Shown: positions 1 through 59,100 of the stretch, piece after piece | Layout: each line of letters starts with the position of its first letter | How positions within the stretch are numbered: position 1 is the stretch's first letter | Source: Eledone cirrhosa | Lineage: Eukaryota | Assembly (NCBI GenBank): GCA_964016885.1 | Contig: OZ024742.1 | Coordinates: forward strand, 91,326,001-91,390,000 | Length of the DNA stretch: 64,000 bases | Direction of reading: 5' to 3' | The notes under the pieces: model-generated | What the model was told of the DNA's origin: nothing | The model's input: only the letters and a program-made list of their open reading frames with translations | Database searches by the model: none | Made by a program: the position numbers and the translations under genes

Positions 1-565
1 CGTAAGGATGAAAGGCAAAGTTAACCTCAGCCGGATTTGAACTCAGAATGGCAAGGGTCGTAACTCTATGCGTCAAAGCATGGCATCCGACCCTTTACCG
101 ATACTGCCAATCCACCACCCTCCATAAAATTCCATAAAATAATTATTTCTTATATAGGCACAAGGCCAGCAATTTTGGGAGAGGGGAAAGTCGATTAAAT
201 CGACCCAGTGCGTGACTGGTACTTTATTTTATCGACCCCGTAAGGATGAAAGGCATAGTTAACCTCGGCGGGATTTGAACTCAGATCATAAAAGTCCGTA
301 ACTCTTTGCGTCAAAGCATGGCGTCCGACCCTCTACCGATACTGCCAATCAATCCACCACCCACCATAAAATTCTATAAAATAATTGTTTCTACTTTTGG
401 CACAAGGCCAGCAAATACCCAGTGTATTCCTGGTACTTTATTTTATCGACCCCATAAGGATGAAAGGCAAAGTTAACCTCGGCGGGATTTGAACTCAGAA
501 TGGCAAGGGCCGTAACTCTATGCGTCAAAGCATGGCGTCCGACCCTCTACCGATACTGCCAATCC
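1..565 (-). mobile_element. Three tandem copies of tRNA-derived SINE family A (Nin/Deu-domain-like core)
   Basis: Copies at about 1-121, 140-364 and 380-565. Minus strand shows A-box TGGCAGTATCGG, B-box GAGTTCAAATCC and core CCTTTCATCCTTACGGGGTCGATAAAATAAAGTACCAG. Confidence 0.85.
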
Positions 566-1139
566 AAAGAGACTGTGTACATATTCTAGAAATGGCAACT
601 AGATTTCCTTCAAATGATACCTTAATACCTTGAGAAGAAAAAGACATTATATAATTTAACAATTGAATTACTGCCTTGCTTACCGTCATTTGAACAAATT
701 TCTTTGATTTTCTGACAAGTTGTCTCTATACCACATCCCGTATAAACAACAATCCTTTTAATACAGGATGAAAACCTTTCGGAATCAGGGATTGAAGGCT
801 GAATATAGTGTTACCACAATTTGCAGTGAAAACACTTGAATTTTGATTTCCGCTTGTGTGTTATGTTATGGATACACATGTGAGTGGAAAACTCAGCTGC
901 TTACGTTATAATTCAATGAATAGTCTGTTGACTAAGCTTCTGTAATACATATCGTCGAAACCGTTATCTAGTCTATAAAGTTCTGATGAAGCTAACAGCG
1001 ATATCCCTCTTTATCAAACTACTTCATCTCAATCCAACATGTTAAAAGCATTTACGTGTTATGACTCTACACATCTGTGTTTACACACTAAAACACGTAA
1101 AGAAACATGAAGCACATCTACACCCACGCACACATAAAA

Positions 1140-3953: not shown

Positions 3954-4154
3954 ATAGGAACCAGTAAGACCCCGACAGCTGAGCTCAAGCCGTTTCGACG
4001 GCTAATTCTGGACTCTGAGTCCAGAATTAGCCGTCGAAACGGCTTGAGCTCAGCTGTCGGGGTCTTACTGGTTCCTATTACCCACTCTACTACCTCAAGT
4101 ATTGAGTACTTTGGTGCGTTATGGTCCACCTGGTTCCTTACCACATTTCCTTCG

Positions 4155-4314: not shown

Positions 4315-4343
<29 letters not shown>

Positions 4344-4361
<18 letters not shown>

Positions 4362-4676
4362 TTTTTTTCGAAACAGCGAGTGGGTTTGAAATTATTAGAA
4401 ATGTAAGCTATCGCCGTATTTTGACTAAAGAAATTAAAGAAATTATTTAGCCTGATAGTGGGGTTAAGAACCCTCGGAGAAATGGAAAAAGATGAGTATT
4501 GACGTACATGGGAGTCGAACCCACATTTTTGGTTATCCGGACCACTGTGCTACGATTTACACTAACACATCATTTACACCAACATTTCTCCGAGGGTTCT
4601 TAACCCCACTATCAGGCTAAATAATTTATTTAATTTCTTTAGTCAAAATACGGCGATAGCTTACATTTCTAATAAT
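4344..4676 (-). mobile_element. Fold-back element with tRNA-like head and poly(A) tail
   Basis: 94-bp inverted arms 4391-4484 and 4583-4676 (1 mismatch), tRNA-like sequence in the loop, T25 on plus at 4344-4368, flanked by (TA)n. Confidence 0.7.
4500..4571 (-). tRNA. tRNA-like cloverleaf (nominal anticodon GGA; probably SINE head or pseudo-tRNA)
   Basis: GATGTGT-TA-GTGT-AAATCGTA-GCAC-A-GTGGT-CCGGATA-ACCAA-AAAT-GTGGG-TTCGACT-CCCAT-GTACGTC-A, with TTTTT about 10 nt downstream. Lacks U33, the D-loop GG and the long Ser variable arm. Confidence 0.5.
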
Positions 4677-5055
4677 AATATATATATATATGTTTTGCAA
4701 TCTTTTTTTATATGAAATCGAGGGTCATATTGTTATAATATTGCCAGAAATAATAATAAAACACACTCAGTTTGGTTTGGATTGGTTTTCGCTTCTGTAT
4801 ATTTTATGTCCCTATAGTTAATTTAGCTAGCAATCAATTGTTTATCATTGTTTGACCAACAGTTAAAAATATATATATAAATATATATATATAGTCTATC
4901 AAAGTTTTTTCATCACACACCTGTGACATCATCAGTGGTACTATTGTTTCCTCCCTTTGTATTGTAATGTAAAATCCTGACTGTGGCGCCAAGAGGTTTC
5001 GGCTTATGTGTTCAGCAAACCTTTGTAGTACACATTTGAAAACGCTTTCCGAATA

Positions 5056-5212: not shown

Positions 5213-5272
5213 TAAAGAGTTAAACAAGATTCAATGAGTACATCAAAGAATGAGTATGTCATGTATCATTAT

Positions 5273-5325
5273 ATTTTGTCTGATGAGGACGTACTGTTGT
5301 ACCTCTGAAATATGTATAATAAAAT
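5273..5325 (+). ncRNA. Type I hammerhead ribozyme motif
   Basis: attttgt-CTGATGA-ggacgtac(tgtt)gtacctct-GAAA-tatgta-TA-ataaaat. Confidence 0.6.
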
Positions 5326-5365
5326 TTAATTGATCAAAAGAACATCTATTTTATTAATATTTGTA

Positions 5366-5403
<38 letters not shown>

Positions 5404-5995: not shown

Positions 5996-6386
5996 AACGT
6001 GCTGACACCATGCATTAACTAGGTTAAGTTGGGGACATGCAACTTGGCACCTGAACATGCAAGTCCATGATGACTGCGGTTTGATTCGCTGGGTCAATGG
6101 TCCTGTTATGATGCTGGAGGTATGGTTCACGAGAGACCTCTAGGTAAATACGAATTACAGTTGAAGTTATGTGCATTGTAGCAAGTCTCATCAAGAAATA
6201 GGATTAGTGGAAGCTGTTTTGGGGTCTGTGAGATTCCTAGATTGGCCCTATAATATTACTTCATTTTTTTTACCCCCTCAGATTTGTATGTAAACCCCCA
6301 CCGTTTATGCAATCAACATTTCTTTGTAATGTCCCCTTGATCCAACACTCCTGTGACAAATAAAACAAACAACTATTATTATAAAC

Positions 6387-6810
6387 AATAATTGTTTCTA
6401 CTTTTGGCACAACGCCAGGAATTATATCCTTGCATTACTGCTACTTTATTGTATCGACTCCGTAAGGATGAAAGGCAAGGTTAACCTCGGTGGGATTTGA
6501 ACTCAGACCATAAAGGAGCGTAACTCTATGCTGTAAAGCATGGTGTCCGATCCTCTACTGATACTGCCATTCACCATCTTCAATAATAATAATTATTATT
6601 ATTGTTATTATTATTGTAGGGCGGTGGATTGGCAGTATCGGTAGAGGGTCGGATGCCATGCTTGACGCTTTGAGTTACGGCCTTTGCCATTCTGAGTTCA
6701 AATCCCGCCGAGGTTAACTTTGCCTTTCATCCTTACGGGGTCGATAAAATAAAGTACCAGTAATACACTTGGTTATTGCTGGCCTTGTGCCAAAAGTAGA
6801 AACAATTATT
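6387..6810. mobile_element. Two SINE family A copies, head-to-head and inverted
   Basis: About 6387-6576 (minus) and 6619-6810 (plus), separated by an (AAT)n/(ATT)n spacer. Confidence 0.85.
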
Positions 6811-7483
6811 GTTATGGTAGTTCAGCCCCCTCGACAATAAATCTATAATCGTAATTCCTTTTGTTAGATAAACAGATAACTACAGACAGTACAAGCACAA
6901 ACAAGACGGAAATCTAGACTAAGTTGACTATCTTATCTAAAGCAAAGATCCTATGTCTACCAGACTGTAAAAAAATGTCTTCTATCTGGGAAGTGGAGTA
7001 TTCTAAAAGAGCGAATGTATCTGTGAACGTTGCAAATGGTATTTGTATATTTATACCAACACTCTGCTGAGTCTGCATGCATATGTGAGTTACTACAATT
7101 TTTCATAAATCTGTATGTGTATGTGTGCGAGTGTGTGTGCGTGTATGCGCGTGTGCTTCTGTGTGTGCGTGTCTGTGTGTGTGCGTGCGTGCATGTGTGA
7201 GAGAAAGTGTGTGTGTGTGAGAGAGTGAGAGTATGTGTGTGAGTGTGTGTGCGTGCGCGCGTGTGTGTGTGCGTGCGTGCGTGAGTGTGTGAGTGTGTGT
7301 ACGCGCGCGCCTTCACTGTTTGTGTGATTTAAAAAAATGGATATTGGTTTATTGTCCCGAGATAGTCTACTGTATTGTAAAAGCTCTGCAATAAAATATG
7401 CATGTGGCGGCGTTATATGTGCATTTGTGCGTGTCAGTTTTTGTGTATGTTCGTGACGGTACATATGCACTTTTACGTATATA

Positions 7484-8492: not shown

Positions 8493-8730
8493 ATATTATC
8501 ATTAGAATTTGAGGAGTTGTTGATATACTCGATAGAGGTGGAGGAGGGAGTTACTATTATCAGTGCTAATAGAAGTGGGAGCATTACTGTTAGTATGTTC
8601 AAAAGAAGTTTAGGAGTTGTCAATAGAAGTGAAGGACATAGGATCACTGTGATCAATGGAATAGAGTAATTATTGTAGGCAATATTGTCAATAGAAGTTG
8701 AGGAATTATTTTGATCAGTAATGTCAGAAG

Positions 8731-11040
8731 TGAAGTTGTTATTGTCAGTATGTTCAAAAGTGAAGTTGTTATTGTCAATATGTTCAAAAATGAAGTTGTT
8801 ATTGTCAATATGTTCAAAAATGAAGTTGTTATTGTCAATATCTTCAAAAATGAAGTTGTTATTGTCAATATGTTCAAAAATGAAGTTGTTATTGTCAATA
8901 TGTTCAAAAATGAAGTTGTTATTGTCAATATGTTCAAAAATGAAGTTGTTATTGTCAATATGTTCAAAAATGAATTTGTTATTGTCAATATGTTCAAAAG
9001 TGAAGTTGTTATTGTCAATATGTTCAAAAATGAAGTTGTTATTGTCAATAAGCTCAAAAATGAAGTTGTTATTGTCAATATGCTCAAAAATGAAGTTGTT
9101 ATTGGCAATAAGCTCAAAAATGAAGTTGTTATTGTCAATATGCTCAAAAATGAAGTTGTTATTGTCAATATGTTCAAAAATGAAGTTGTTATTGTCAATA
9201 TGTTCAAAAATGAAGCTGTTATTGTCAATATGTACAAAAATGAATTTGTTATTGTCAATATGTTCAAAAGTGAAGTTGTTATTGTCAATATGTTCAAACG
9301 TGAAGCTGTTATTGTCAATATGTTCAAAAGTGAAGTTGTTATTGTCAATATGTTCAAAAGTGAAGTTGTTATTGTCAATATGTTCAAATATGAAGTTGTT
9401 ATTGTCAATATGTTCAAACGTGAAGTTGTTATTGTCAATATGTTCAAACGTGAAGTTGTTATTGTCAATATGTTCAAAAGTGAACTTGTTATTGTCAATA
9501 TGTTCAAAAGTGAAGTTGTTATTGTCAATATGTTCAAACGTGAAGTTGTTATTGTCAATATGTTCAAACGTGAAGTTGTTATTGTCAATATGTTCAAAAA
9601 TGAAGTTGTTATTGTCAATATGTTCAAACGTGAAGTTGTTATTGTCAATATGTTCAAACGTGAAGTTGTTATTGTCAATATGTTCAAAAATGAAGTTGTT
9701 ATTGTCAATATGTTCAAACGTGAAGTTGTTATTGTCAATATGTTCAAACGTGAAGTTGTTATTGTCAATATGCTCAAAAATGAAGTTGTTATTGGCAATA
9801 AGCTCAAAAATGAAGTTGTTATTGTCAATATGCTCAAAAATGAAGTTGTTATTGTCAATATGTTCAAAAATGAAGTTGTTATTGTCAATATGTTCAAAAA
9901 TGAAGTTGTTATTGTCAATATGTACAAAAATGAAGTTGTTATTGTCAATATGTTCAAAAGTGAAGTTGTTATTGTCAATATGTTCAAACGTGAAGCTGTT
10001 ATTGTCAATATGTTCAAAAGTGAAGTTGTTATTGTCAATATGTTCAAAAGTGAAGTTGTTATTGTCAATATGTTCAAAAATGAAGTTGTTATTGTCAATA
10101 TGTTCAAACGTGAAGTTGTTATTGTCAATATGTTCAAACGTGAAGTTGTTATTGTCAATATGTTCAAACGTGAAGTTGTTATTGTCAATATGTTCAAACG
10201 TGAAGTTGTTATTGTCAATATGTTCAAAAATGAAGTTGTTATTGTCAATATGTTCAAACGTGAAGTTGTTATTGTCAATATGTTCAAACGTGAAGTTGTT
10301 ATTGTCAATATGTTCAAAAATGAAGTTGTTATTGTCAATATGTTCAAACGTGAAGTTGTTATTGTCAATATGTTCAAACGTGAAGTTGTTATTGTCAATA
10401 TGTTCAAAAGTGAAGTTGTTATTGTCAATATGTTCAAAAGTGAAGTTGTTATTGTCAATATGTTCAAAGGTGAAGTTGTTATTGTCAATATGTTCAAAGG
10501 TGAAGTTGTTATTGTCAATATGTTCAAAAGTGAAGTTGTTATTGTTAATATGTTCAAAAGTGAAGTTGTTATTGTCAATATGTTCAAACGTGAAGTTGTT
10601 ATTGTCAATATGTTCAAACGTGAAGTTGTTATTGTCAATATGTTCAAAAGTGAAGTTGTTATTGTCAATATGTTCAAACGTGAAGTTGTTATTGTCAATA
10701 TGTTCAAACGTGAAGTTGTTATTGTCAATATGTTCAAACGTGAAGTTGTTATTGTCAATATGTTCAAACGTGAAGTTGTTATTGTCAATATGTTCAAACG
10801 TGAAGTTGTTATTGTCAATATCTTCAAAAGTGAAGTTGTTATTGTCAATATGTTCAAACGTGAAGTTGTTATTGTCAATATGTTCAAACGTGAAGTTGTT
10901 ATTGTCAATATGTTCAAACGTGAAGTTGTTATTGTCAATATGTTCAAAAGTGAAGTTGTTATTGTCAATATGTTCAAACGTGAAGTTGTTATTGTCAATA
11001 TGTTCAAAGGTGAAGTTGTTATTGTCAATATGTTCAAAAT
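8731..11040. repeat. 30-bp minisatellite, about 77 copies (TGAAGTTGTTATTGTCAATATGTTCAAANN)
   Basis: Directly visible 30-bp period. Degenerate ATTGTCAATA-containing flanks run from about 8490 to 11800. Confidence 0.97.
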
Positions 11041-11227
11041 AATTTGTGGAATTATTGTGGCCAATGTTTTAATAGAAATAGAGTTATTCTTGATGATGAT
11101 GAATAGAAGTGTAGGAGTTAATGTTGTCAATATTGGTCATATAGATGAAATTATCGTTTATTTTTGTGAAATTGTCAAGAAAGATGCGATTATCAATTTC
11201 CATATTCCATATTGTGTAGGGCATTAT

Positions 11228-11437
11228 ATTGGCAATATCGGCAGCGAGTCGGACAACATGCTTGGCTACATAGAGTTACGGTCCTTTACGTTCTCAGTTC
11301 AAATCCCACCGAGGTTAGCTTTGCCTTTCATCCTTACGGGGTTGATAAAATAAGTACCAGTCATACACTGGGGTCGATTTAATCAACTGTCTCCTCCCCC
11401 AAAATTGCGGCCTTGTGCCTAAATCAGAAACCATTAT
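11228..11437 (+). mobile_element. SINE family A copy (older)
   Basis: B-box and core motif. Confidence 0.75.
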
Positions 11438-12255
11438 TTTCCATATTGTCATCATTTTCAATTGTGGCACAGCTATTGTCAATATATATGAAGTTACTGC
11501 TGAGAATTCTGTCAATAGTGTTCAATAGATTGGAGTCTATATTTTCAAGTAGAATTATTGGCAGTGAACATCATCTGTAGAGTTGGAGTTGTTATTGTCA
11601 ATATTGATAATAGGTATTAATTTAGTCAAGATTGTCAGAGTGTATCTTGTTAATGCTTTCAATAGACGTGGATTTATTATTATTGTCATGAGAGGTGAAA
11701 ATTTCTTTGACACCATTGTCAATAGACGTGTAATTATTGTTAAATATATTAGATTTCTTATTGTCCAAACGTGGATTTACCAATGTAGATATTACTGACC
11801 AACTGCAGATTTTCTTTTCTTACAATATGTAGACCATTTTCGAATCTATTTTTTCTTAAATGTGAATCGTTGCCCCGAAGAGGAATTTTCCGGGTGAAAA
11901 ACCCATGGGCATTCGTCACCGAAGAGGATCATTATACATATATGTGTGTGCATGTGTGTGTGTGTGTCTGTCTGTCTGTATGTGTGTGTGTGTGTGTGTG
12001 TTTACTAGCTCTAATGTCGGAGTGTAGAATATAAAGATTATATTTTTTCGGAAAATGACTTAAATTAAAGCAAGTTTTTTTATAATGTTCTTCACATACC
12101 GATTAAGATGCATATACTTACGGTCTTGGTAATACACTTACACACAAACATTCATACAGAGATAGAGAGGCAGATAGATGGGTGGATAGAGATAGGTAGA
12201 CGGGGATGGACAGATAGATAGACATACGTATATGTGCTCAGACTTACATGCTTTT

Positions 12256-12444
12256 ATAATAATTGTTTCTACGGTTGGCACAAGGCCAGCAATTACCCAG
12301 TGCATTACTGGTACTTTATTTTATCGACCCTGTAAGGATGAAAAGCAAAGTTAACCTCGGCGGGATTTGAACTCAGAATAGCAAGGGCCGTAACTCTATA
12401 CGTCAAAGCATGGCGTCCGACCCTCTACCGATACTGCCAATCCA
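12256..12444 (-). mobile_element. SINE family A copy
   Basis: Near-identical to 380-565, including the flanking CCAAAAGAC-like sequence. Confidence 0.85.
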
Positions 12445-12591
12445 AAAGACCTACACAATCACATATAAATACAGAAACACACTCACGATGTGTGAAGCTT
12501 TGAACTGTTTAATTCTCACAGTAAAAGTAAATCTTTTCAAACGTAAACTGGTATCTCTTTCGCAGAGTTGTATGCAATGCACTTTAATTAC

Positions 12592-16482: not shown

Positions 16483-16534
<52 letters not shown>

Positions 16535-16540
<6 letters not shown>

Positions 16541-16929
16541 GATATTAATAAATGGAAAATATATTTATAAAACCATTTTTATTTCATTATACATATTTCA
16601 AGGATACCAAGTTAAACCATGGTATGCCTTCATCAGACAAAATACAATATATAACAGTTTTATAAATAGACATTGACGTACCCTTTCAAAAAGTGACGCT
16701 TGCTTTTGGAGGCCATCATTTTGGAGGCCATTGTATTTTGTCTGATGAAGGCATACCATGGTTTAACTTGGTATCCTTGAAATATGTATAATGAAATAAA
16801 TATGGTTTTATAAATATAGTTTCCATTTATTAATATCGTATATCTACTCCAAATATTTGTCGAGTGCTTTATATCAGTTATAAAAATATTTGCTTGTTGT
16901 ATCCCAACAATTTAAATAGAACTTTTGCA

Positions 16930-16930: not shown

Positions 16931-18208
<1,278 letters not shown>

Positions 18209-22249: not shown

Positions 22250-22460
22250 TGGCGTTAAACAACAGAGCATAAGACAGCATGCCAGTTCATCGCCGGATTA
22301 AACGCCCAGCTATTGCTGGAACTCATTTTAAGAATATACTGGAGCAATTTGAAATGAAGTGTTTTGCTCAAGAACACAACACACAATCCAGTCAAGGAAT
22401 CGAAACAACGGCGTTATTATCGTAAGTCCAACACACTCACCTCTAGGCCATGCGCCGCCA
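22250..22460 (-). mobile_element. Older tRNA-derived SINE (family B-like)
   Basis: Minus strand GGCGCATGGCCTAG..TTCGATTCC..TGTGTTCTTGAGCAAAACACTT. Confidence 0.6.
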
Positions 22461-25410: not shown

Positions 25411-25496
25411 TCTATATATATGTGAGTCTGTTTATGTCTTTATACGCGTGCACACACTCACACACGCACACACACACACATATAAATTAATAATAA

Positions 25497-25683
25497 TAAT
25501 AATTGTTTCTACTTTTGGCACAAGGCCAGCAATTATTCCAGTACATTACTGGTACTTTATTTTATCGACCCTGTAAGGATGAAAGGCAAAGTTAACCTCA
25601 GCTGGATTTGAACTCAGATCGTAAAGGGACGTAACTATGCTGGAAAGCATGTCCGACCCTCTACCGATACTGCCAATTCACCG
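25497..25683 (-). mobile_element. SINE family A copy
   Basis: Family motifs present. Confidence 0.85.
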
Positions 25684-25697
25684 AATAATAATAATGA

Positions 25698-26663
25698 TTT
25701 CATTTATTAGCCACAAGGGCCGACATGTAGGGGACAATATAAAGACAGGAACAGTGGGGGTTTACAATAAGGTCGAGTAAAAGTGCACAATGGCAAGACT
25801 AATTTAACAATGTAGATATAAAAAATATAAAATAAACCATGCATAAATATGACAAAATAAATTCGCCGAAAGGGGGTGGACGACCCTAGGGTGACTCAGT
25901 TACCCCACCAATCCTAAACCACCCTGCGCTTCTAGGGCACCCAGGGAGAGCACCCTTCCTCAAGTTAGCTAGCCTATAGGCGCATGTAGGCGCATTCACA
26001 CGGGCCATTCTCGCCACATTCATCCACCTTTTAGCAAATGTACTGGGGGGCAGCACTTCTCTCTCAACCGTCACCTTCTTTTCCAGGTGAAACTTGAAGA
26101 AGTTGATGAGGAATTGGCCGAAGAGAAAAGTGTCTGTCTTTAGTCCTTTTAATCTGGTCCACCATTATAACCACTTTCGCAACCACCAGACAGAGGAAAA
26201 TTTCCTGCTCTTCCTGGCCTAAGGAAAGCGGCGGGTCGATCTTCATTATGGACTCGGCTGATAGCCGGATTCGTTCCACACGCGACAGTAGCTGTTCGAC
26301 ATAACTCCACAAGTCAGTAATGCACGGACATTGGACAAGTGCGTGCAGAATGGTTTCGTCGCTTTGTGCGCATCTTGGGCAGGTCCGTCTGACAGCACTT
26401 GCGTGCCTCTAGAGTTTATCCCGAACCGGCAGTGCCCCCGGTAGCACTGCGAAGCCAGGGATTTCTGGAAATTGTCCATCGTCCCCGGCTCGAAAGTCCC
26501 CCGGTACAGACTGGTCAGTTCGACTTCGTCGAGGCCCAAAGCTTCTCCGAGTGCGTCATCGCACTTGCCCACCACTAATCCTCTATAGAACTCGAGAGTG
26601 GAAGTTCCACTGATCGCATTGCCCGCTTGGTAGAGGGCAGTGAGTGCCTGGCAACATTCCAGG
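25698..26663 (-). mobile_element. 3' fragment of an L1/Tx1-like LINE ORF2
   Basis: GC-richer broken ORFs with MWSYVEQLL.., FLCLV..AK and F.KRW C-terminal motifs. 3' end CCCTTGTGGCTAATAAA is shared with 38010-38490. Confidence 0.6.
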
Positions 26664-32788: not shown

Positions 32789-34038
32789 AATTATCTATGC
32801 ATAAACAGATGTACTTGAATACCAGAAGTTAACTGCTCTATCGATTATGCCAATCAGTGTTTTTCAAATTCACGAGGTAACAGTGACTTATAAAAAATAG
32901 CAGCCATGTTCTGTGTAAATATATATGGTTTTACGAAAAATATATATTAGTTATCAATATCAATAAAATGTTATAAAATGCTTTAATAAATACCCATTTT
33001 CTTTCGAAGAATTTCTTTCAATTTCTGCCAAATTGTCACATTTTGTTATAAAAAATATTGATAAAAAATCTCATAACGTTCAAAATGAGATTGCATAAGA
33101 GGCAAGCCAAGTGTCAGACTTCACTAGAATACAACGCTGATTGGTTAATATTTTCACGTAGAACTACCTTCCCCAATCAGAAAATACTTATTTAAAAGTT
33201 GTCAAACTCTGATTAACTCTTACGATGTCACATGATATTCCATTAGCACATATTTTGGATGAAGAAACCAGTCACATAACCAGCTCATAATTGACAAGCA
33301 CTTATTTTATCAAACCACTAGTTGGATGTTTGGCAAAATCTACCTCAATGGGATTTGATCTCATAAACAGGTGTACTTAATCCATAAGACATTTAGTTAA
33401 AAACACTGCCAATCAGTGCTTTTCGAACCAACGAGGTAGTCGTGACCTGCTAAAAATAGCCGCCAAATTTGCCTCCGAGCACAATATAAAAGAAAATAGG
33501 AACATTAGACAATATAGTCAGAAATTTACACACAGATGTGATAGTAATGTCTGGGATGCTTTTGACCATTGGTCCACTAGATTCTAGCTGGCGTGGAATG
33601 AAACTAAAACAATCTATGTCCTTCATTGCTAATATTATTTAACTGTACATAACTCTCGAACTTTAAAAAGGAAAAGTACCAAAGTATTTATGATACGGTG
33701 CGCAAACAAATTTGTAGAACCACGTATTTGCGTGACACTAGACTGTTACTACACATTGTCAGTGTTTCATCTTTCGAGCACGCACACGCGCACAGAGGAG
33801 AGAGTGAGAGAGAAAAGAATTAATTCGCCTTAATAAAAATTAATCTCAAGCAGGGCAAATGTGGGAAGCCCTGAAAATTCAATAGACCAAAAATTAAATA
33901 TATAAATGGTCGGGAAGTGCGTTCTAGCTTCAGTAGTTCCGGTCATATTTCTGTGTATAGTCCACTAACAAATGCCAAGGCATTAGAAACATTAATAGAT
34001 ATAGTAGTTTGTGTAAAACACTGGTTAGGCAATTTAAT

Positions 34039-34258
34039 ATAATTGTTTCTAGTATAGGCACAAGGCCAGTAATTTGGGGGGAGAGGAAAGTCGATTAAAT
34101 CGACCTCAGTACGTTACTGGTGCTTTATTTTATCGACTCCGTAATGATGAAAGACAAAGTTAACCTCGGCGGGATTTGAACTCAGACCGTAAAATGCCAT
34201 AACTCTATGCTGCAAAGCATGGTGTCCGACTCTCTACCGATACTGCGAATCCCCCACC
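34039..34258 (-). mobile_element. SINE family A copy
   Basis: Family motifs present. Confidence 0.85.
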
Positions 34259-39290: not shown

Positions 39291-40285
39291 GTAAACACAA
39301 CAGAAATAGTGAAAAGGTATAATTAGAAAGTTGTTTAAATTACCGAACACTCATGTAACCGGCGTCAGGAGAAAAAAAAATTACTTAGTAATTTCAATAT
39401 AGGTGTTCCGCACAGTTAGTTACACAAGATATAAGAATTTTAAAATTTGCTACGCAATAAATTTGACACACCTAAACCACAATTAAATACGAGCTTGATG
39501 ATGGGGTGAACAAGTCGATACTTAAGGAATTACAAATATCAAATTATTTTTAATAGAGAATTGCAAAAATATATAATGTGTTTGTCCTTTACTACCAGGC
39601 CAGCCCTGGTAGAGGTGAACTATGATGAAAGGAATTCTACACGTAATCACTCAGTATTTTTAAGGACTAATTTTCCGGCATATCTTTTTATCCGGATTTA
39701 CGCTTTCATGATATCATATTTAAGAGTAAGGAAGAGTGTTTCTGACTTCGTAAAATGTTTCTGTTGAATTATATTATATTGTTAATCAAAATAGATAATC
39801 CAGCACCCCCTGGAATTAAGTGCAGCGGAAAATCCGTGTTGTGCGTTTGTCTTGAACCGTCTTTGTCTTAAAGTATCTCAGTGTTCTTTAAGATGATAGT
39901 GTGATTTTTTAGGTAGGTTTTGCTGCTAATTCTAGCATGTCAAGTGACTCTGTACAATCTCACTTGTTTTTGTTCTTTAGCATCATTTAATGTCAGCGCA
40001 AACCACGACCTATATTATACTCATGATAAAATTCTGTGTTTATGTAATATATTCCCCCATCTCTTTTGTCATGATTTTCAGGGAGTTTCGGCTATTATTT
40101 CTCATAAATCAAGCGTCCACATAGTATTTTTCGTTGACATATGAAGCTTACATCGCTGATTCTGCTGTCGTGCAGTCCCAGGTCAGCACAAACTCAGTAG
40201 ACCTATTTATTATCAAAGACGTTTATGCTGTGGCCATTTTTCTTTCTATTTTTTTTTTTTCATTCTTATATATATTATATCTTAA

Positions 40286-40625
40286 TTGGCAGTATCGGTA
40301 GAGGGTCAGACGCCATGCTTTGCAGCAAAGAGTTACGGCCCTTTATGGTCTGAGTTCAAAATCCCACCGAGGTCAACTTTGCCTTTCATCCTTACGAGGT
40401 CGATAAAATAAAGTACCAGTAATACACTGGGATAATTGCTGGCCTTATGCCAAAAGTAGAAACAATTATATCTTACGGCGAATTAGCAGAGTCGTTAGGT
40501 CAGATAGAATGCTTTGTAGTAGTCGTTCCGGCTTTTCGCTCTCAAATCCCGTCGAGGTCAACTTTGTCTTTCATCCTTTCGAATTCGATAAAAAAAAAAG
40601 TACCGGTCTAATATTGGTTCGATTT
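40286..40625 (+). mobile_element. SINE family A copy followed by an older related SINE
   Basis: 40286-40468 young copy; about 40476-40625 diverged copy with the same core. Confidence 0.8.
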
Positions 40626-43231: not shown

Positions 43232-43506
43232 AAATAAAGTACCAGTAATGCACTGGGTAATTGCTGGCCTTATGCCTAAAGTAGAAACAATTATTTGTAT
43301 AACAGGGCGGTGGATTGGCAGTATCGGTAGAGGGTCGGACGCCATGCTTTCCAGCATAGTTACGTCCCTTTACGATCTGAGTTCAAATCCCACCGAGGTT
43401 GACTTTGCCTTTCATCCTTACGGGGGTTGATAAAATAAAGTACCAGTAATGCACTGAGTAATTGCTGGCCTTGTGCCTAAAGTAGAAACAATTATTTGTA
43501 TAACAG
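43232..43506 (+). mobile_element. SINE family A copy preceded by a duplicate of its own 3' end
   Basis: 43232-43304 repeats 43434-43506. Confidence 0.85.
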
Positions 43507-44172
43507 TTTACTATTTCACATATCTACACTCTTCAGAACTTTCATTTTACAGCCCCAGCTCCCATCAATTCTTCCCCAACCTGGCCAAGGACACAATGAG
43601 CACCATAGTCTTGTAATGGGTAGTGTTGATGTCACAATAAAATGCACCAAGCCCTCTCTGTAAAGTGATAGTGCTAGTGTCACAATAAAAAGCACTCAGT
43701 CTGCATACAAGGCAGTGGTGCTGGTGCTCCAACAAAAGCACTCAGGGCACCTTGTAAGGTGGTAGCACAGGGGTCATGAGACATTGGCAGTGAGAAGGGC
43801 ATCCAGACATAGAAACCTAACCCAAAACAGAGCATATGAGTAAGAGAGTCTCTTGACCAGTCAAAACCTGAGTATATGCTAGCCCATCTAACACATGCAA
43901 GCATGGAAAATAGGTACGGAATGGTGATGAAGATGAGTGTATTTATATTGACATTAGCCAATGTCTCTTGTAATACAAGAGAAACTGGCTCCTATTTCTA
44001 GCAGTCAAGTCTCTACATATTCTTCTTAGCCTTGTAAACAGTGTGATAAAAATGTACATACAAAAATACAAAGGATAAAACAAATTTAGAAAGTAGATGC
44101 TGAACGAAAATATATATGTAAAAAAAAAAAAAAAAAAAAGTGAATCATTGAAAAACAAATGAAAAAAACAAT

Positions 44173-44688: not shown

Positions 44689-47600
44689 CTGGAATGAAGA
44701 AAAGTGACATATAAATATAAGAAACGAGTTATCTAATTTGAATAATAAAAAATTACAGACACTGATTTTAGCTTTTTCTATAACATGCAGCATAAACACT
44801 CATACCTACATATATAACTTGAATAAGCATATTATACACATGCATAACAATGGACACTATTTGATTTCCACAGATGAATGTTGCAGTTGTTCAATCCACA
44901 CAATGGGATATTCAATGACCTTATAATGTATTTCAAAGACACTTGTACCCTAAAAAATCCTCAGGCAAAATCATTGACAAGATTAGGCCTTCAAATTAAA
45001 CGTACAGTTCATTGAATGTGCTTTAAACAAACTAATTTCACTCACAAGACTTGGATCAACCCAGAACTATAGTAGAAGACACTTCCCTAGAACAATGTAA
45101 TTGGGAAACAAACATCTTAACTCATAACCATGAGTCCAAAATATTATATACACATAGAAAACACACAATTTTGAAAATAACCAAGAATTTGCAAGGATTT
45201 AGTAATATAACTATTTTTTATTGTTAAGATTTTTCAAACATAACCTTATAGAATGTTAGGATGTGCTGGACGGAGTGTTTGAAGACTCTTCCCCCATGAC
45301 CCTCTCAGGAATAAGTAGGCGAAAAAGAAGGTTTTTAGATATGAACATTTTAAAGTAGGAAGTTTTATATAAGAACCAGATGCAGTATCAGACAAGTTCG
45401 CATCAAAAACGTTTTTAAAAAAGAAACATTAGCTGATGTAGTCTGTCATATACAAAAAGATGCGACATGGTTGGAATACATTCAATCATGTCTGCTGGAT
45501 CAGTGCTACACAGCATTGAAGTTTCTTTTTAACAGAATAATTTACAAGGTTTGAATAATTTTTAAACATTTATGTTTTCATACAGACATATCTAAAATAT
45601 GTATAACACAATCATCAATTCTTAGTGACTAGTGTGTGTTTATTATGGAGTTAGTGATGTGAAATACCACTGGGTGGTACATGGAGCAAGTCTCTTCTAG
45701 AATTAGTTTCGATTGACAAAATCCTTGTGAAAAATTTGGTAGACAGAAATTGTGGAAGTTCATCAGATGTGGATATACATGTGTCTGAATTAATGGAATT
45801 TTGAGTCAAAAGTCTTTACGGTATTTAGTTTTGTCTCAGTTATTGATAGGATAAGTACCAGAGGTGAACGAAGGCACTTAAATGTGGTTCCCTAACAAAT
45901 TAGTAACAAAAACCAGAAAAAGATAAGCATAATATATTCGATATTTGAAGGATGAGGGTGGGGAGTTGGACATTTATATCACTATTTGCATTTATCAAAA
46001 GAAATAAAAATATTTTCTTTTCCAATATTGAAAAAATATTTAAGACAGTATATAGAGCTTCATGCTTAGTAAACCAACGAACATTAAAGAAATGGTGTTA
46101 AGATTTTTTTAATTTCGCAAAATAAAGTTTAAATGCGTCATATTATATATACATTTTAATTATTTTGTTAATTAATTAAATTATTTCGAGAATAAATTAG
46201 GTTATCATTTTTCACACTAAAAAACAAGGTATATAATTCTTCTAGCTTGCTTGTGGATTACCTCCCTTGTCAGTTTAATATTTATTCTTTTTTGTAGAGA
46301 TAAATGTTCAGCCCCACGTTAGGATTGATCCGGCAGACCTATAAGTAAAAGGCATGTTAACTCAGATCATCCAATTATCTATTTATCTATTATATATATA
46401 TATATATATATATTATTTTTTTTTTTTTTTGTGGTGGGTATATATCAGGAACTACATCATCCAATGTAATGAATGTATCTATTATTTTAAATTAGTGTAA
46501 TTTAAAGACGATTTGACTGCTATATCTAGCATGCTAAGTGATTACAATGAGTGTCTTATGTTAACTGTACTTACTGCTTTTATGTTTGTCTCTCAGAGAT
46601 TAGACAGATCTGCAATACAGTATCTTTCTATACATGACAATAAATTATACAAGCAATTTGATGGCAGTACATGGCTTAGTGGTTAGAGCATTGGGCTTGT
46701 AATCGAAAGGTTGTGAGTTCAATTCTCAGACTGGGTGATGTGTTGTTTCCTTGAGCAAGACACTTTATTTCACATTGCTCCAGTTTACTCAGCTGTAGAA
46801 ATGAGATGATAGGACTGGGGTCCCTATCATTCCACTGCAAAGTGGATGTGGAGGTGCCACAGAAAAAAGGCACCCAGCACTCACTGTAAATGAGGTTGGT
46901 GTTAGGAAGGGCATCTAGCTGTAGAAATCAAGCCAGAATCAGTTCCTGTCCCACCCTTGCAAGCAGGGAAAAGCGGACGTAAAATGATGATGATGAATCG
47001 GAGTGAACAAATGTAACATATATTTCTTTTTCTTATCTATTACTTATTTAGATAAATAATCTAAATCAGGATCCTAATATTATTCTAGAAGTGAAAATAA
47101 GGTTAACCCTTTTGATACAACCCCACCCAAAACAGGGATGCCTGTTTAAATGAAATTAAAAACATTTTTATAAAAGAACCCTATGTATCCCGGTTTTTAG
47201 AATATGTACACAGTATCCCTGTGTATCATTAGAAGCGACTAAAAGGGTTTGCATCAGGAAGGGCATCCAGCTATAAAACACTGTTCCAACCCATCCAATT
47301 CAAATACATCAGTGTGAATCAGTAAGACATAAAAATAATGATAATGATGATGATGAACCCTCTGTTAAGTTACTGCCTTAGTAATGAAATCATCAAAATG
47401 AAGGATAGATTGTATGATGTGTATACAAACAGAAAAGTTGCATGGGAGTGAGACCTGGCACTGTATACAGAGGACTTACGAAGATTGGAAAGAATCCGAT
47501 GGATGTGTAATAATAATATACATGAACATGGAGGCACATGGCTTAATAGTTAGAGCATTGGCCTTGCAATCGAAAGGTTGTGAGTTCAATTCTCAGATGG

Positions 47601-51855: not shown

Positions 51856-52894
51856 GATTGTTATTCTAACTTGTCGATCTGATGGCTATACAAGCACATG
51901 TAAAATATGGTAGCATAAACGTACTATAAACTGATTCAATTTCTTGCAGTATGAAGTTAATTGAAACCCGATTATGTGGATTGGCAGTATCGGTAGAGGG
52001 TCAGACGCCATGCTTTGCAGCAAAGAGTTACGGCCTTTTATGGTCTGAGTTCAAATCCCGCCGAGGTTAACTTTGCCTTACGGGGTCGATAAAATAAAGT
52101 ACCAGTAATATACTGTTATATTTGTTGGCCTTGTGCCAAAAATAGAAACAATTATATAGTCAACTGGCAAGTGCTAGGGGTATATCAGTCATAATTGTAT
52201 TGTGCTGTTTATTACATAATTAAATATGTATATATATATATGTGTGTGTGTGTGTGTATGCGTTACGACAAAAAGCACCCAGCACACACTATCGATGTAG
52301 TTGGCGTTACGAAGGGCATTCAATCGTAGAAAACCACCCAGAAACACTCCTAAGTGAGCGAGACACGATCACCCGACCCAAATTGCTTCTAAATGGGACA
52401 AACCCGTCTAACCCATGCTAGCGTGGATGATTAATCTATGATGATGATGATGTGTGTGTATATATAAAGAGTGGTGTGCTCATTAGCGGTGATGTTATTT
52501 ATAGCATCTCCGTGTATGAGCACACCACTATTTATATTAACTTTATCCCCTCAACGCTTCGGTGAAGTATACGCTTCGCTAATGAGGTCATGACAAGGCA
52601 TAGGTATTTCCGAAGTTGTCTCCCATACTTTCCGAAATAATTGAAATATTTGTCATTGATTAATATTATTATTGTTTTTTTTTCCCTTTGCATAGTTGTT
52701 TCTATGATCACCATATTAAATATTAGCGAAATATATTAGAATGATCATTTCTCACATTGGAATAAAGCCGTACATTTTCGACAAGGGTATAGTCGATTAT
52801 ATAGACCAGGCATGGACAACCTTTACATAATTAAATAGCTCTGCACTATACATAGAGCACTCTTCTTTCTTTTACTTTTTCCACGGAAATACTT

Positions 52895-56100: not shown

Positions 56101-59100
56101 AGACGAACAAAGTGAGAAATTAGGAATAAGAGGGATCAGATACTGTTTACTTGAGAAGATTATGTTGGTATGGTCATGTGATGCACGTGAAAGACGACAG
56201 CTGTATAATAAAGTGTAGGGCGATTAAAATTGATGGAAGCTACAGAGTAGGTAGACCCAGAAAAATCTGGGATGACATGATAAAATCCGACCTTGCACAT
56301 TTACACCTCTCTAAGACAATGTCACTGGGTCGAGACCTTTGGCGCCATGCAGTAATACAGAAGACCCACCTTCCCTATGTACAAAGTTAAACCTACAGTC
56401 AGTAGGCACCTCTTAACCAAATATACACCTCAACCCACTACCCCTACTCCATCCTCCGATTCCCATCAACACCACCCTTTCTCTGTAAAGTTATGTTGGT
56501 ACCACAGAACATCCAGTCCAAACTAAAGAGGTTGTGTAGGTGTCATGACAAAAAAAGCACAGTGTCTGTGCTGTAAAGTGGTCGTATAGGACTGTATCTT
56601 CTTTAAATTTACTTGAAGTTTCCTTTGAGTTTAAAAGTAAGCTTGCCCAAATTTCTGTATGTGTAGTTAGTCGTAATTAACGCAGGGTGTTAATTTAGAG
56701 AAAAATATTATGTGATCTCTATTATATAAAGTTGTTAATGTAGTAAATGTTAGATTTCCTTGTCTTTCCTATGTAACCATGTTAATAATACTGTGTGATG
56801 TTTATAATCTCTGCTATTAAGTAATTTCTATCATTGTCCATTTGCAGGCTTTAATGTCAAAGGATGCGGCTTTCAATCAGTTCATTCAAAATCCTTCATT
56901 GAAACGTCAAGACAAACAGGGTGAGTAATCATAATTGTAATTTCTAATGTTTATTGTTTAATAGGTGTTTGATCTAAAACCCTTCTAGGGCACTAGACAT
57001 ACTTCTTCACCTGTCTATAACATGCCCACATAGTCCTTGGCTGCTTTTAGTGGACCCTACTCTGTTGCAGACATTTGGACCAAGTCTCCAGTCCAAGGAT
57101 AACTTCTGATTCTCCCACCAATGCAATAAGCCATATATGTTGCTCTTTCTCTTTGCCTTAAAATATAAATCATTATTTCCTGTCTGTAATATGTAATGGA
57201 CAACATATTTTTTTAAATATGACAAGAACATCTTAAATTATTAGTGGGTATGTTTTAGAAGCTGCTACAATGCAGGCAGCGTTGTAAATATTGAGGGATA
57301 AAATAAGATGAGAAAGGAGAGAGAGATGTGAGAGTGAATGTAAAGAAGGAAGAAAAAAAAAGATACCAGAGATTATCTTCATAATATTCATTAATCCCTA
57401 CATATTTTGGATATACTATCCAATTTCAAGAGATCTGTTGAGAACTTTGGAGTGGACCTTTTTAGGCTTCTGTACGTATACGAGATTCAGGCGGGTCTAT
57501 TTTGGTTATGGTGGTTGGTGTCATCAATAGGTAGGTAATAATTGTTTCTATTTTTGGCAGAAGGCCAGCAATTATCCCAGTGTATTACTGGTACTTTATT
57601 TTATCGACCCCGTAAGGATGAAAGGCAAAGTTAACCTCGGCGAGATTTGAACTCATACCATAAAGGGCCGTAACTCTTTACTGATACTGCCAATCGTTTG
57701 TTCTGTTGGGGTGGTGGTGTCGGAGTCAAACACTATTGTAGAGTGGAAAGATAACTGAATAACAGGTTTTGACTAATCACAATAGATAGTATTTAAAGAA
57801 GAAAGAAAGACTTCTTGATTGTAATAGATTAAAATTTGTTTTACACCATATAGTTTTGAGTTTCTGTTCAATACCAGCTTAGTAGAGGTAAAATATCTAA
57901 TGGATAAGTATTGTTTATATTTGCTAGTTAGCTCTTTATCGATACATTTCATTGTCGTTGGTTGGAAATAGTTCTCATTTCACTGAACAACATTCTTTCG
58001 AATGCCTTATTTTTATCGTTCACCTAATACGGTCATACATTCAACTCTGTCATCACCATCATTATTTTACATCCATTTTCTATACTGCTGCATGTGTGTG
58101 TCAGTTCTTGTTTGGAGATACTGCTCTTCTAGGTGGGTCGAGGACCATGTCTTGGTTTAGATGCCACAAGCTTTCAGCTGCTCACAGCAGCATTTAACAT
58201 AATACAATAATAATCTGCTTTGTTAACTGGTCATATGATTGTGATTATAGGCAGGCATAAACTCTGAACCATAGAATAATGTTACTGTGATAATTGATAT
58301 TCCTGTTCTGCAGTCCACATTTAAAAAACATTCCTTCCTCCTTCCCTAATTGTTAATGTAATAATTACTATCATTTAGTTAAAGATGTTTATTTCAAAGT
58401 GAAAAGACCATATAACTTAGGTCCTTCTATATATGAAACATAACTTACTTTCTACATTATCCTATTTCAGCTGCCTTGGTTGGTGTTGCTGGGAAGATGA
58501 AATACAACCCTCTTATAGTGAACCTCCTTGGTGAGTAAATCAATAATATTTGTTGTATTTGAATGTCCAAAGGGAGATCTACTGCATCCCTCTCCTAGAA
58601 ATCTCTTTTCTTACCTATGTGTTCTTTTTTTTTTTTTTAGTTTTTTTTTAAAATTCCAATTTGAATATTGCTGCTTATATATTAAAAATTTGGAAGAAAA
58701 AATTGTATTTTTTGTGAGTTGTTTGATAAATCTAAGATAAATATAATATAGAGCTGTGCAGTTTGGTGTAAAATAGCTATTGCAGATTGTATCTGTGTGT
58801 TTAGTCTCAGACTTTGAAATCTTTTGTCCCTACCATTCACTTTGATGTAAACAACAAAATCTTCCAGTTATTCAGGCTTAATATCTCTCTTCTCCATTTC
58901 TCCAAATGCATTTACTATTTCTACTACAGTTAACTTTTGGGATTGATGGCATATGTCTCATCTTATCATCTTATCTCTCTTGGAACATATCAAATTATTT
59001 GGTATCCTGTATTTTCTATACTTGCTTTCTATCTGTATCATTGACTAACATCTCAACTCTCTAAAAATTCCTGATCACTTATCTCCAAACCAAACCTCTA

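What the first reader, a model, noticed from the sequence alone, without database searches (positions are those of the whole stretch)
4344..4676. tRNA-headed, poly(A)-tailed element with a Penelope-style inverted arm: candidate PLE-mobilised SINE
Seen: on the minus strand the order is (TA)n, a 94-bp inverted copy of the body, a 72-nt tRNA-like cloverleaf with B-box GGTTCGACTCC, TTTTT, the 94-bp body, a 22-nt unique end, A25, then (TA)n. This is the same inverted copy / direct copy / unique tail layout within (TA)n as the hammerhead modules at 3954, 16535 and 17351. Known: PLE insertions often carry inverted partial pseudo-LTRs and favour microsatellites, whereas described SINEs depend on LINEs. 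Inference: a Pol III-driven non-autonomous element copied by PLE machinery. The arms could also fold into a 94-bp dsRNA with the tRNA-like part as loop.
Basis: partly seen in the sequence, partly recalled or inferred. Interest (0 to 1): 0.75.

Follow-up and report, generated by a model that had tools for sequence, protein, structure and literature searches.

The report
tRNA-promoter passenger of Penelope retrotransposons
This is one copy of a young 271-base non-coding repeat that carries a tRNA look-alike, has no ribozyme and normally no poly(A) tail, and sits back-to-back in TA microsatellites; it is likely copied by Penelope-type retrotransposons, and where its copies break off likely records where its RNA starts and where the host methylates it like a tRNA.

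Summary
The A25 tail occurs once in the genome, against 1578 normal ends, and the tRNA sits inside a 271-nt unit that runs round in tandem. A body 23-mer has 2127 exact matches. In 80 unselected loci, 48 are head-to-head pairs; 40 of these have one long and one short fixed end a median 40 nt apart. 117 of 125 outer ends touch (TA)n, and none has poly(A) or a non-TA TSD. This is the Penelope tail signature, also seen on RT+GIY-YIG elements here. No hammerhead core, and no sequence-matched partner, was found. Inner ends pile up just 3' of tRNA A58 (51 of 86 arms) and at the tRNA start (9 of 25), which suggests a Pol III RNA treated as tRNA; no RNA was available to test this. The scan noted 256-260-nt units of this kind, and an A58 break, on other DNA of this genome. 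Precedents: schistosome Sm-alpha (Pol III plus hammerhead) and Cassandra/Helenus. Verdict: a new variant of non-autonomous PLE, not a classical SINE.

The parts
4319..4343 (.). (TA)n target microsatellite, long-arm side
   Evidence: 117 of 125 outer ends of unselected copies have (TA)3+ within 25 nt against 9% of random window 25-mers
4344..4368 (-). A25: the family's A4 extended by 21 A, private to this copy (slippage, oligo-adenylated template or assembly error; not resolved)
   Evidence: 1 match; 1578 matches
4369..4390 (-). PLE-type tail, monomer positions 182-203; present on the long arm only; in other copies it runs to 215-223
4391..4484 (-). Body of the long arm, monomer positions 88-181
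4485..4499 (-). Trailer with the monomer's only run of 4 or more T (T5, 4486-4490); complementary to the leader that precedes the tRNA in tandem copies (18-bp stalk)
4500..4571 (-). tRNA-like cloverleaf, monomer positions 1-72: A box 4553-4564, B box 4511-4521, A58 at 4515; non-decoding anticodon arm; this copy differs from the family majority at positions 9, 18 and 45
4572..4582 (-). Junction insert: templated repeat of tRNA positions 7-17 with microhomology on both sides; keeps the family base at position 9
4583..4676 (+). Short (inverted) arm, monomer positions 88-181, ending at the family's second fixed end
4677..4691 (.). (TA)n target microsatellite, short-arm side

Best explanation
It is a two-armed insertion of a 271-nt non-coding tandem unit that holds a tRNA-like module and no hammerhead core, and it is likely a non-autonomous passenger of Penelope-like retrotransposons (PLEs), likely transcribed by Pol III from the tRNA's internal promoter. 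Shown: the unit, its copy number, the (TA)n target, the two fixed outer ends about 40 nt apart, the head-to-head arms, and inner ends piling up just 3' of A58 and at the tRNA start. Inferred mechanism: (1) Pol III starts about 4 nt before the tRNA in a source locus with more than one unit, reads through the first T5 and stops at the next, giving an RNA of about 360 nt with about 90 nt repeated at both ends, as Cassandra does. (2) A PLE RT/GIY-YIG protein cuts both strands of (TA)n and starts two cDNAs on the same template sequence at two internal sites (about 181 and about 216-223). (3) Most cDNAs stall at the folded T-loop, probably at a host m1A58 mark; some reach the RNA 5' end; some continue into the next unit by strand transfer through the repeated ends. 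(4) The two cDNA ends, or one cDNA end and the TA run, are trimmed and joined by microhomology, leaving inserts such as 4572-4582.
For: Architecture in 80 unselected loci (first 100 of 2127 pattern matches): 48 two-armed, 29 one-armed, 3 complex. 40 of 48 pair one end at 205-225 with one at 160-190, offsets 27-60 nt, median 40.5. 117 of 125 outer ends abut (TA)n; 0 of 125 have A8; 0 of 77 loci have a non-TA direct repeat of 8 nt or more. This fits the published PLE layout (inverted 5'-truncated copy, partial tandems, 30-40 bp tail at one end, (TA)n bias; PMC8557442) and the two internal RT start sites and two-strand cutting of a PLE in vitro (PMC11167929). GIY-YIG search: 10,595 candidates, 150 scored, all over the cut-off. 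RT plus C-terminal GIY-YIG ORFs confirmed, with the same short-end/long-end/(TA)n layout in L126, L130, L136 and L140. Arms and successive laps of one insertion share 34.5% and 33.8% of variant calls against 4.5% between loci. Inner ends: 51 of 86 arms at risk end at 59-68, about 7 times the per-base rate of the three bins before; 12 of 20 one-armed copies do too; 9 of 25 end at -3..+8. Of 44 ends near the tRNA start in 137 loci, 33 lie at -4..+2 and 7 at the first G of the leader's GGG. Genome-wide 20-mer counts fall 5239, 1635, 477 across the T-arm and the tRNA start. In five sister units the tRNA and trailer are mostly better kept than the body (e.g. L202 tRNA 63/71 and trailer 20/20 against body 63/89; L203, a near-271 variant, is the exception). 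The T5 is kept in 20 of 23 aligned heads while its pairing partner varies A/G.
Against: No autonomous PLE shares the 3' region: best BLAST E 0.94-3.3; the recurring 18-nt hit lies inside a PLE 3' UTR, not at its end; six PLE ends gave p 0.21-0.98 against shuffles. Only 49 loci picked from 150 scored GIY-YIG hits were looked at. The T5 ten bases after the tRNA should stop Pol III before the RT start sites, so read-through has to be assumed. The pile-up lies 2-11 nt 3' of A58 and coincides with three overlapping 4-nt palindromes, which favour head-to-head joins and shift apparent ends; 6 of 35 arms end at 54-57, just past A58. A58 substitution is not clearly raised: 3 of 117 in the family sample; 46 genome-wide (23 T, 16 G, 7 C), with a spectrum not different from background (p 0.095), although A>T at A58 was the only A>T change above 1% in DNA contigs (3.2%, about 80 contigs). 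The 5' edge is not absolute (ends at -6 in L068 and L257). No covariation above shuffles for cloverleaf or stalk. The pattern counts mix subfamilies to different degrees.
Confidence: 0.62

Rival explanations
1. A ribozyme-free retrozyme: the tRNA fold is a processing signal. RNase P cuts a multimeric transcript at tRNA +1 into 271-nt monomers, which are ligated into circles and copied round by a PLE RT.
For: Arms exceed one unit (up to 611 nt, L069) and start at any phase. Laps share variants (23 of 38 concordant at common sites). Unit size and tandem layout match animal retrozymes (PMC7229834; preprint). 20 of 44 ends near the start lie at -1..+2.
Against: 13 of 44 ends lie at -4..-2, upstream of the RNase P site, on G bases that TA microhomology does not explain in most cases. 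An 18-bp leader/trailer stalk extends the acceptor stem, and one subfamily has an altered acceptor end. The circular fold is not unusually stable (z -1.4). Lap concordance is 61%, not near 100%.
Confidence: 0.2
2. PLE-mobilised, but the tRNA part is inert cargo: the RNA comes from Pol II read-through of host or PLE promoters, and the breakpoints reflect only palindromes and hairpins.
For: The T5 blocks a simple Pol III reading. The 59-68 peak overlies overlapping palindromes. A58 misincorporation is not significant. No covariation.
Against: One-armed copies, which need no palindrome, stop at the same place (12 of 20). A second peak sits at the expected Pol III start. The tRNA and trailer are better kept than the body across subfamilies.
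Confidence: 0.1
3. An ordinary tRNA SINE moved by a LINE, with 5' inversions from twin priming and a poly(A) tail.
For: tRNA-like part with A and B boxes; A25 in this copy; a LINE lies in one fetched region (L137).
Against: Poly(A) in 1 copy against 1578. No non-TA TSD in 77 loci. Two fixed 3' ends and arms that repeat the same sequence head-to-head. Sequence continues round the unit past the tRNA start.
Confidence: 0.04
4. A DNA element (MITE or Helitron-like) whose arms are terminal inverted repeats.
For: Inverted arms; TA target.
Against: Arm length and inner breakpoints differ from copy to copy. 29 of 80 loci have one arm only. One arm carries an extra tail, and partial tandems occur.
Confidence: 0.03

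Closest known systems
Animal non-LTR retrozymes as non-autonomous PLE derivatives (PMC7229834, passages; bioRxiv 10.64898/2026.07.22.740005, parts 1-2 of 5)
   Same: Non-coding unit of about 300 nt, low GC, monomers and partial tandems, likely PLE-dependent.
   Different: No hammerhead core on either strand and no ribozyme family in Rfam at E 1; a tRNA-like module instead; circular RNA not shown.
Schistosome Sm-alpha / Sj-alpha SINE-like repeats (PMC2770079 and PMC6765202, passages; the primary paper PMC108972 is not held)
   Same: Tandem repeat with a Pol III promoter; Sm-alpha is reported as tRNA-Gln-like, and this head is nearest a host tRNA-Gln among the few tRNAs compared (44-46 matches to L235 against 35-44 for others; weak).
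   Different: Sm-alpha carries a hammerhead that frees the unit; this family has none. The passages read do not describe PLE-type tails or (TA)n targeting for Sm-alpha.
Non-autonomous Chlamys PLEs such as MRC1 (PMC8557442, passages)
   Same: Non-coding, head-to-tail and pLTR-forming insertions.
   Different: Those generally resemble an autonomous family at the 3' end; no such match was found here. No tRNA module is described in the passages read.
TRIMp3 elements Cassandra, Helenus, Ajax (PMC10886601, passages)
   Same: Non-autonomous retroelement with a small-RNA-derived Pol III promoter inside a repeated unit; Cassandra starts in one copy and stops in the next, leaving a terminal duplication.
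   Different: These are LTR elements with PBS, PPT and TSD, moved by LTR retrotransposons; here the layout is of PLE type.
tRNA-derived SINEs (SINE2)
   Same: tRNA-derived A and B boxes; high copy number; young.
   Different: No family poly(A), no TSD, no LINE-like tail found; the tRNA is internal to a permuted unit; most copies lack the tRNA.

Membership tests
Non-autonomous PLE | Inverted 5'-truncated copy next to the 5' end | tested here: met
   48 of 80 unselected loci are two-armed head-to-head
Non-autonomous PLE | 30-40 bp tail on one end only (two RT start sites) | tested here: met
   40 of 48; offsets 27-60 nt, median 40.5
Non-autonomous PLE | Partial tandems (pLTR-like) and 5' truncation | tested here: met
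   Arms up to 611 nt; 16 of 25 arms pass the tRNA start
Non-autonomous PLE | (TA)n or AT-rich target, no ordinary TSD | tested here: met
   117 of 125 ends; 0 of 77 loci with a non-TA repeat of 8 nt or more; a TSD made of TA alone cannot be seen
Non-autonomous PLE | Autonomous RT+GIY-YIG elements in the genome with the same layout | tested here: met
Non-autonomous PLE | 3'-end similarity to an autonomous partner | tested here: inconclusive
   None among 49 GIY-YIG-selected loci; 10,595 candidates exist
Non-autonomous PLE | Mobilisation by a PLE protein | not testable with these tools
   Needs an in vitro or cell assay
Non-LTR retrozyme | Type I hammerhead in each unit | tested here: not met
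   No CTGAnGA core on either strand of the dimer; Rfam finds only tRNA
Non-LTR retrozyme | Expressed as circular RNA | not testable with these tools
   Needs RNA data
tRNA SINE | tRNA-derived A and B boxes | tested here: met
tRNA SINE | tRNA head at a fixed 5' end | tested here: not met
   25 of 113 arms reach it and 16 of those run past it
tRNA SINE | Poly(A) or simple-repeat tail and TSD from a LINE partner | tested here: not met
tRNA SINE | Pol III transcription | not testable with these tools
   Indirect support only; T5 argues against a simple transcript
Functional tRNA gene | U33 and a stable anticodon | tested here: not met
   C33 majority; loop varies among subfamilies; Ser-GGA, Ser-TGA and Phe-GAA calls with a short variable loop
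MITE / DNA transposon | Fixed terminal inverted repeats | tested here: not met
   Variable arms; 29 of 80 loci one-armed

The most novel reading that the evidence does not exclude
A third kind of Pol III retroposon, beside SINEs (LINE-borne) and TRIMp3 (LTR-borne): a PLE-borne, ribozyme-free tRNA mimic whose RNA is methylated by host tRNA enzymes. The m1A58 mark and terminal redundancy drive RT pausing and strand transfer, so thousands of genomic copies record an RNA start site and an RNA modification in DNA.
Probability: 0.3. Interest if true: 0.8.

Novelty: new variant of a known kind. Interest (0 to 1): 0.58.

Why it matters
How PLEs pick and insert their RNA is open, and their link to small non-coding passengers rests mostly on shared hammerheads. 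A short, young (mostly 95-99% identical), high-copy passenger with no ribozyme shows that the hammerhead is not needed for PLE-type insertion. It also offers a minimal template with two mapped start sites for in vitro tests. If the T-loop and -4 pile-ups are what they seem, Pol III retroposons can ride PLEs as well as LINEs and LTR elements, and genome assemblies can reveal RNA modifications. Repeat pipelines would file such families as unclassified SINEs.

Tried and rejected
RNA test: no RNA holder listed; this says nothing about expression. Both read-laying runs used contigs of runs of unrecorded kind; organism B gave 5 short contigs, too few to use. Partner search: BLAST of the monomer against 50 loci (49 GIY-YIG-selected plus one mistyped region, L137, a LINE, set aside) gave only chance hits. 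The 18-nt match at the family's end looked promising but lies inside a PLE 3' UTR. Local alignments to six PLE ends and three small elements did not beat shuffles. ARAGORN found no tRNA in the 20 fetched 10-kb regions. Covariation: none above shuffles. A58 misincorporation: not significant; 19 of 20 sibling tRNA copies keep A, which post-insertion mutation also predicts. tRNA origin: the tRNA family search scored only 63 candidates, so the Gln assignment is weak. The hairpin z-score of -25.6 follows from the inverted repeat and was not counted as evidence. Search of earlier findings by sequence returned nothing, so identity with the earlier 256-260-nt families is judged from unit length and description only. 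The host was not determined; 'octopus' was a guess used only as a search term. Literature searches listed no paper describing a tRNA-bearing, ribozyme-free PLE passenger; most subscription journals, Repbase and Dfam were not searchable, and no supplements were read (repeat libraries in supplements, e.g. of PMC13282606 and PMC8557442, may hold this family).

Full report
Observation. The window lies in G000, a 3.0-Gb genome; its host was not determined.

The family. A DNA search gave 1423 candidates; the 40 best places were 97-100% identical. A body 23-mer has 2127 exact matches and the reversed control none. Mapping 90 loci showed that the true unit is 271 nt and runs on in tandem; arms start at any phase and reach 611 nt. 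I number it from the first base of the tRNA. Sister units of 259-271 nt with the same layout and homologous end sites turned up in 20 further regions chosen for tandem or paired hits, including an array of at least 16 diverged units (L204). The scan's earlier notes describe 256-260-nt tRNA-bearing units in this genome; they are probably these sisters, though a look-up by sequence returned nothing.

The poly(A) is private. The 20-mer ending in A9 occurs once in the genome, here; the normal continuation occurs 1578 times. None of 125 outer ends of unselected copies has A8. Whether the extra 21 A come from slippage, an adenylated template or assembly error is open.

Insertion layout. To avoid selecting for full-length copies I took the first 100 of the 2127 matches, which collapse to 80 loci. 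48 are two arms head-to-head, 29 are one arm, and 3 complex loci were left out of the end counts. In 40 of 48 pairs one arm ends at 205-225 and the other at 160-190; the offset is 27-60 nt, median 40.5. 117 of 125 outer ends have (TA)3+ within 25 nt against 9% of random window 25-mers, and 0 of 77 loci have a non-TA direct repeat of 8 nt or more. Craig et al. describe this layout for PLEs: partial tandems, an adjacent inverted truncated copy, a 30-40 bp tail on one end and a (TA)n bias (PMC8557442, passages). Frangieh et al. show that a PLE protein cuts both strands of AT-rich DNA and starts RT at two internal sites whose spacing is the tail, and that hammerhead cleavage is not needed in vitro (PMC11167929, parts 1-2 of 4). 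The genome is rich in PLEs (10,595 GIY-YIG candidates, 150 scored; of five ORFs scanned, four PLE-type ORFs hit RT, two also GIY-YIG at E 0.001, and the fifth was the mistyped LINE), and L126, L130, L136 and L140 show the same short end, long end and (TA)n. Arms and laps of one insertion share about 34% of their variant calls against 4.5% between loci, so both come from one template sequence. Against: no PLE examined shares the 3' region, so the partner is unnamed.

No ribozyme. The dimer has no CTGAnGA core on either strand (the core motif is recalled), and Rfam finds only tRNA at E 1. The family therefore fails the defining test for retrozymes (PMC7229834, passages; preprint 10.64898/2026.07.22.740005, parts 1-2 of 5) while being laid out like them.

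What the tRNA part does. It is not a decoding tRNA: C33 is the majority and the loop differs among subfamilies. It is nearest a host tRNA-Gln among the few compared (weak). It and its trailer are better kept than the body in four of five sister units. Leader and trailer can pair over 18 bp; changes are one-sided A/G against the T5, with no covariation above shuffles. Inner ends are far from random. Of 86 arms that reach position 68, 51 end at 59-68, just 3' of A58 (position 57), against 8-10 per ten bases before; 12 of 20 one-armed copies do the same. Of 25 arms that reach position 8, 9 end by -3 and 16 run on. Across 137 loci, 33 of 44 ends near the start lie at -4..+2, 7 at the G at -4; a purine after a pyrimidine 11 nt before the A box fits a Pol III start (recalled knowledge). 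In 30 further loci, 5 ended at -6..-1 and 14 ran on (read by eye). Genome-wide 20-mer counts fall from 5239 (70-89) to 1635 (34-53) to 477 (247-266), but these mix subfamilies. Against it: three overlapping palindromes lie at 62-70 and shift apparent ends; 6 of 35 arms end at 54-57; A58 substitution is 3 of 117 locally and its genome-wide spectrum (23 T, 16 G, 7 C) does not differ from background (p 0.095), although A>T at A58 was the only A>T change above 1% in contigs of two runs of one sample. A stall at the folded T-loop is therefore well supported as a pattern; the methyl mark is inference.

The terminator problem. The unit's only run of four or more T lies ten bases after the tRNA and is kept in 20 of 23 aligned heads. 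A Pol III RNA must read through it to include the RT start sites. In a source with more than one unit it would then stop at the next T5, giving about 360 nt with 90 nt repeated at both ends. Cassandra is described as working this way (PMC10886601, passages). Strand transfer through the repeat would give the multi-unit arms without a circle. DNA alone cannot separate this from a circular template; ends upstream of +1 argue against RNase P making the 5' end.

This copy. The long arm reached the tRNA start; the short arm stopped at 88; they are joined through a templated repeat of positions 7-17 that keeps the family base at position 9, so the change at 9 in the cloverleaf came later. With G18 changed as well, this copy is likely inactive. 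The 94-bp hairpin would form only in a read-through transcript from outside.

Comparison and novelty. Tandem Pol III repeats with a tRNA-like part are known in schistosomes, but with a hammerhead (PMC2770079, passages; PMC6765202, passages; the primary paper is not held). Non-autonomous PLEs are known (MRC1). Nine searches listed no paper on a ribozyme-free, tRNA-bearing PLE passenger; repeat databases and supplements were not seen. I rate it a new variant of a known kind, interest 0.58: real and testable, with PLE dependence and Pol III transcription still inferred.

Noticed in passing
window 3954-4146 and 17351-17570; copies in many loci: Abundant (TA)n family with the same arm/tail layout but no CTGAnGA core in the window copies or just upstream of any of 66 BLAST hits; its arms nearly all begin at one point, which may be an RNA 5' end or an unrecognised cleavage site. 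Longer copies (L012, L051, L149, L014) continue upstream.
   Followed up: partly
window 16532-16846 and 5268-5400: Related small elements with a clear CTGATGA...GAAA hammerhead core; the first is two-armed with a tail.
   Followed up: partly
window 46670-46733, with a homologue at 22332-22460: A second tRNA-like head (Rfam 33.3 bits) followed by a repeated body; looks like an ordinary SINE and does not match this family.
   Followed up: partly
window 8523-11047: Long minisatellite, period about 30 nt from self-match offsets, with stop-free frames of 775-973 codons.
   Followed up: no
window 1-573, 2800-2997, 6375-6815, 11211-11440, 12255-12459, 25486-25699, 34035-34258, 40270-40625, 43232-43510, 51971-52160, 57536-57683: A very abundant dispersed repeat of about 200 nt, 80-94% identical, sometimes tandem or inverted.
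   Followed up: no
L204 (G000:C1:131460700-131464900): Satellite-like array of at least 16 diverged sister units of about 240-270 nt, heads 82-94% identical to the family.
   Followed up: no
monomer position 22 (window 4550): G22 in the D stem varies to T, A and C in 18 of 114 arms without linkage to subfamily markers; two insertions carry the change in both arms. Unexplained.
   Followed up: partly
monomer positions 42, 163 and 171: Minor recurrent outer ends besides the two main ones, possibly further RT start sites.
   Followed up: no
L236-L244 (G000:C1:168.21-168.28 Mb); L220, L222: Clusters of tRNA-Gln-type genes (22 pattern matches within about 65 kb) and arrays of tRNA-Thr-like genes.
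   Followed up: no
L121, L122, L126, L129, L130, L132: A PLE family whose 3' UTR begins with a degenerate 69-nt repeat of the ORF's end and shows no hammerhead core near it.
   Followed up: no
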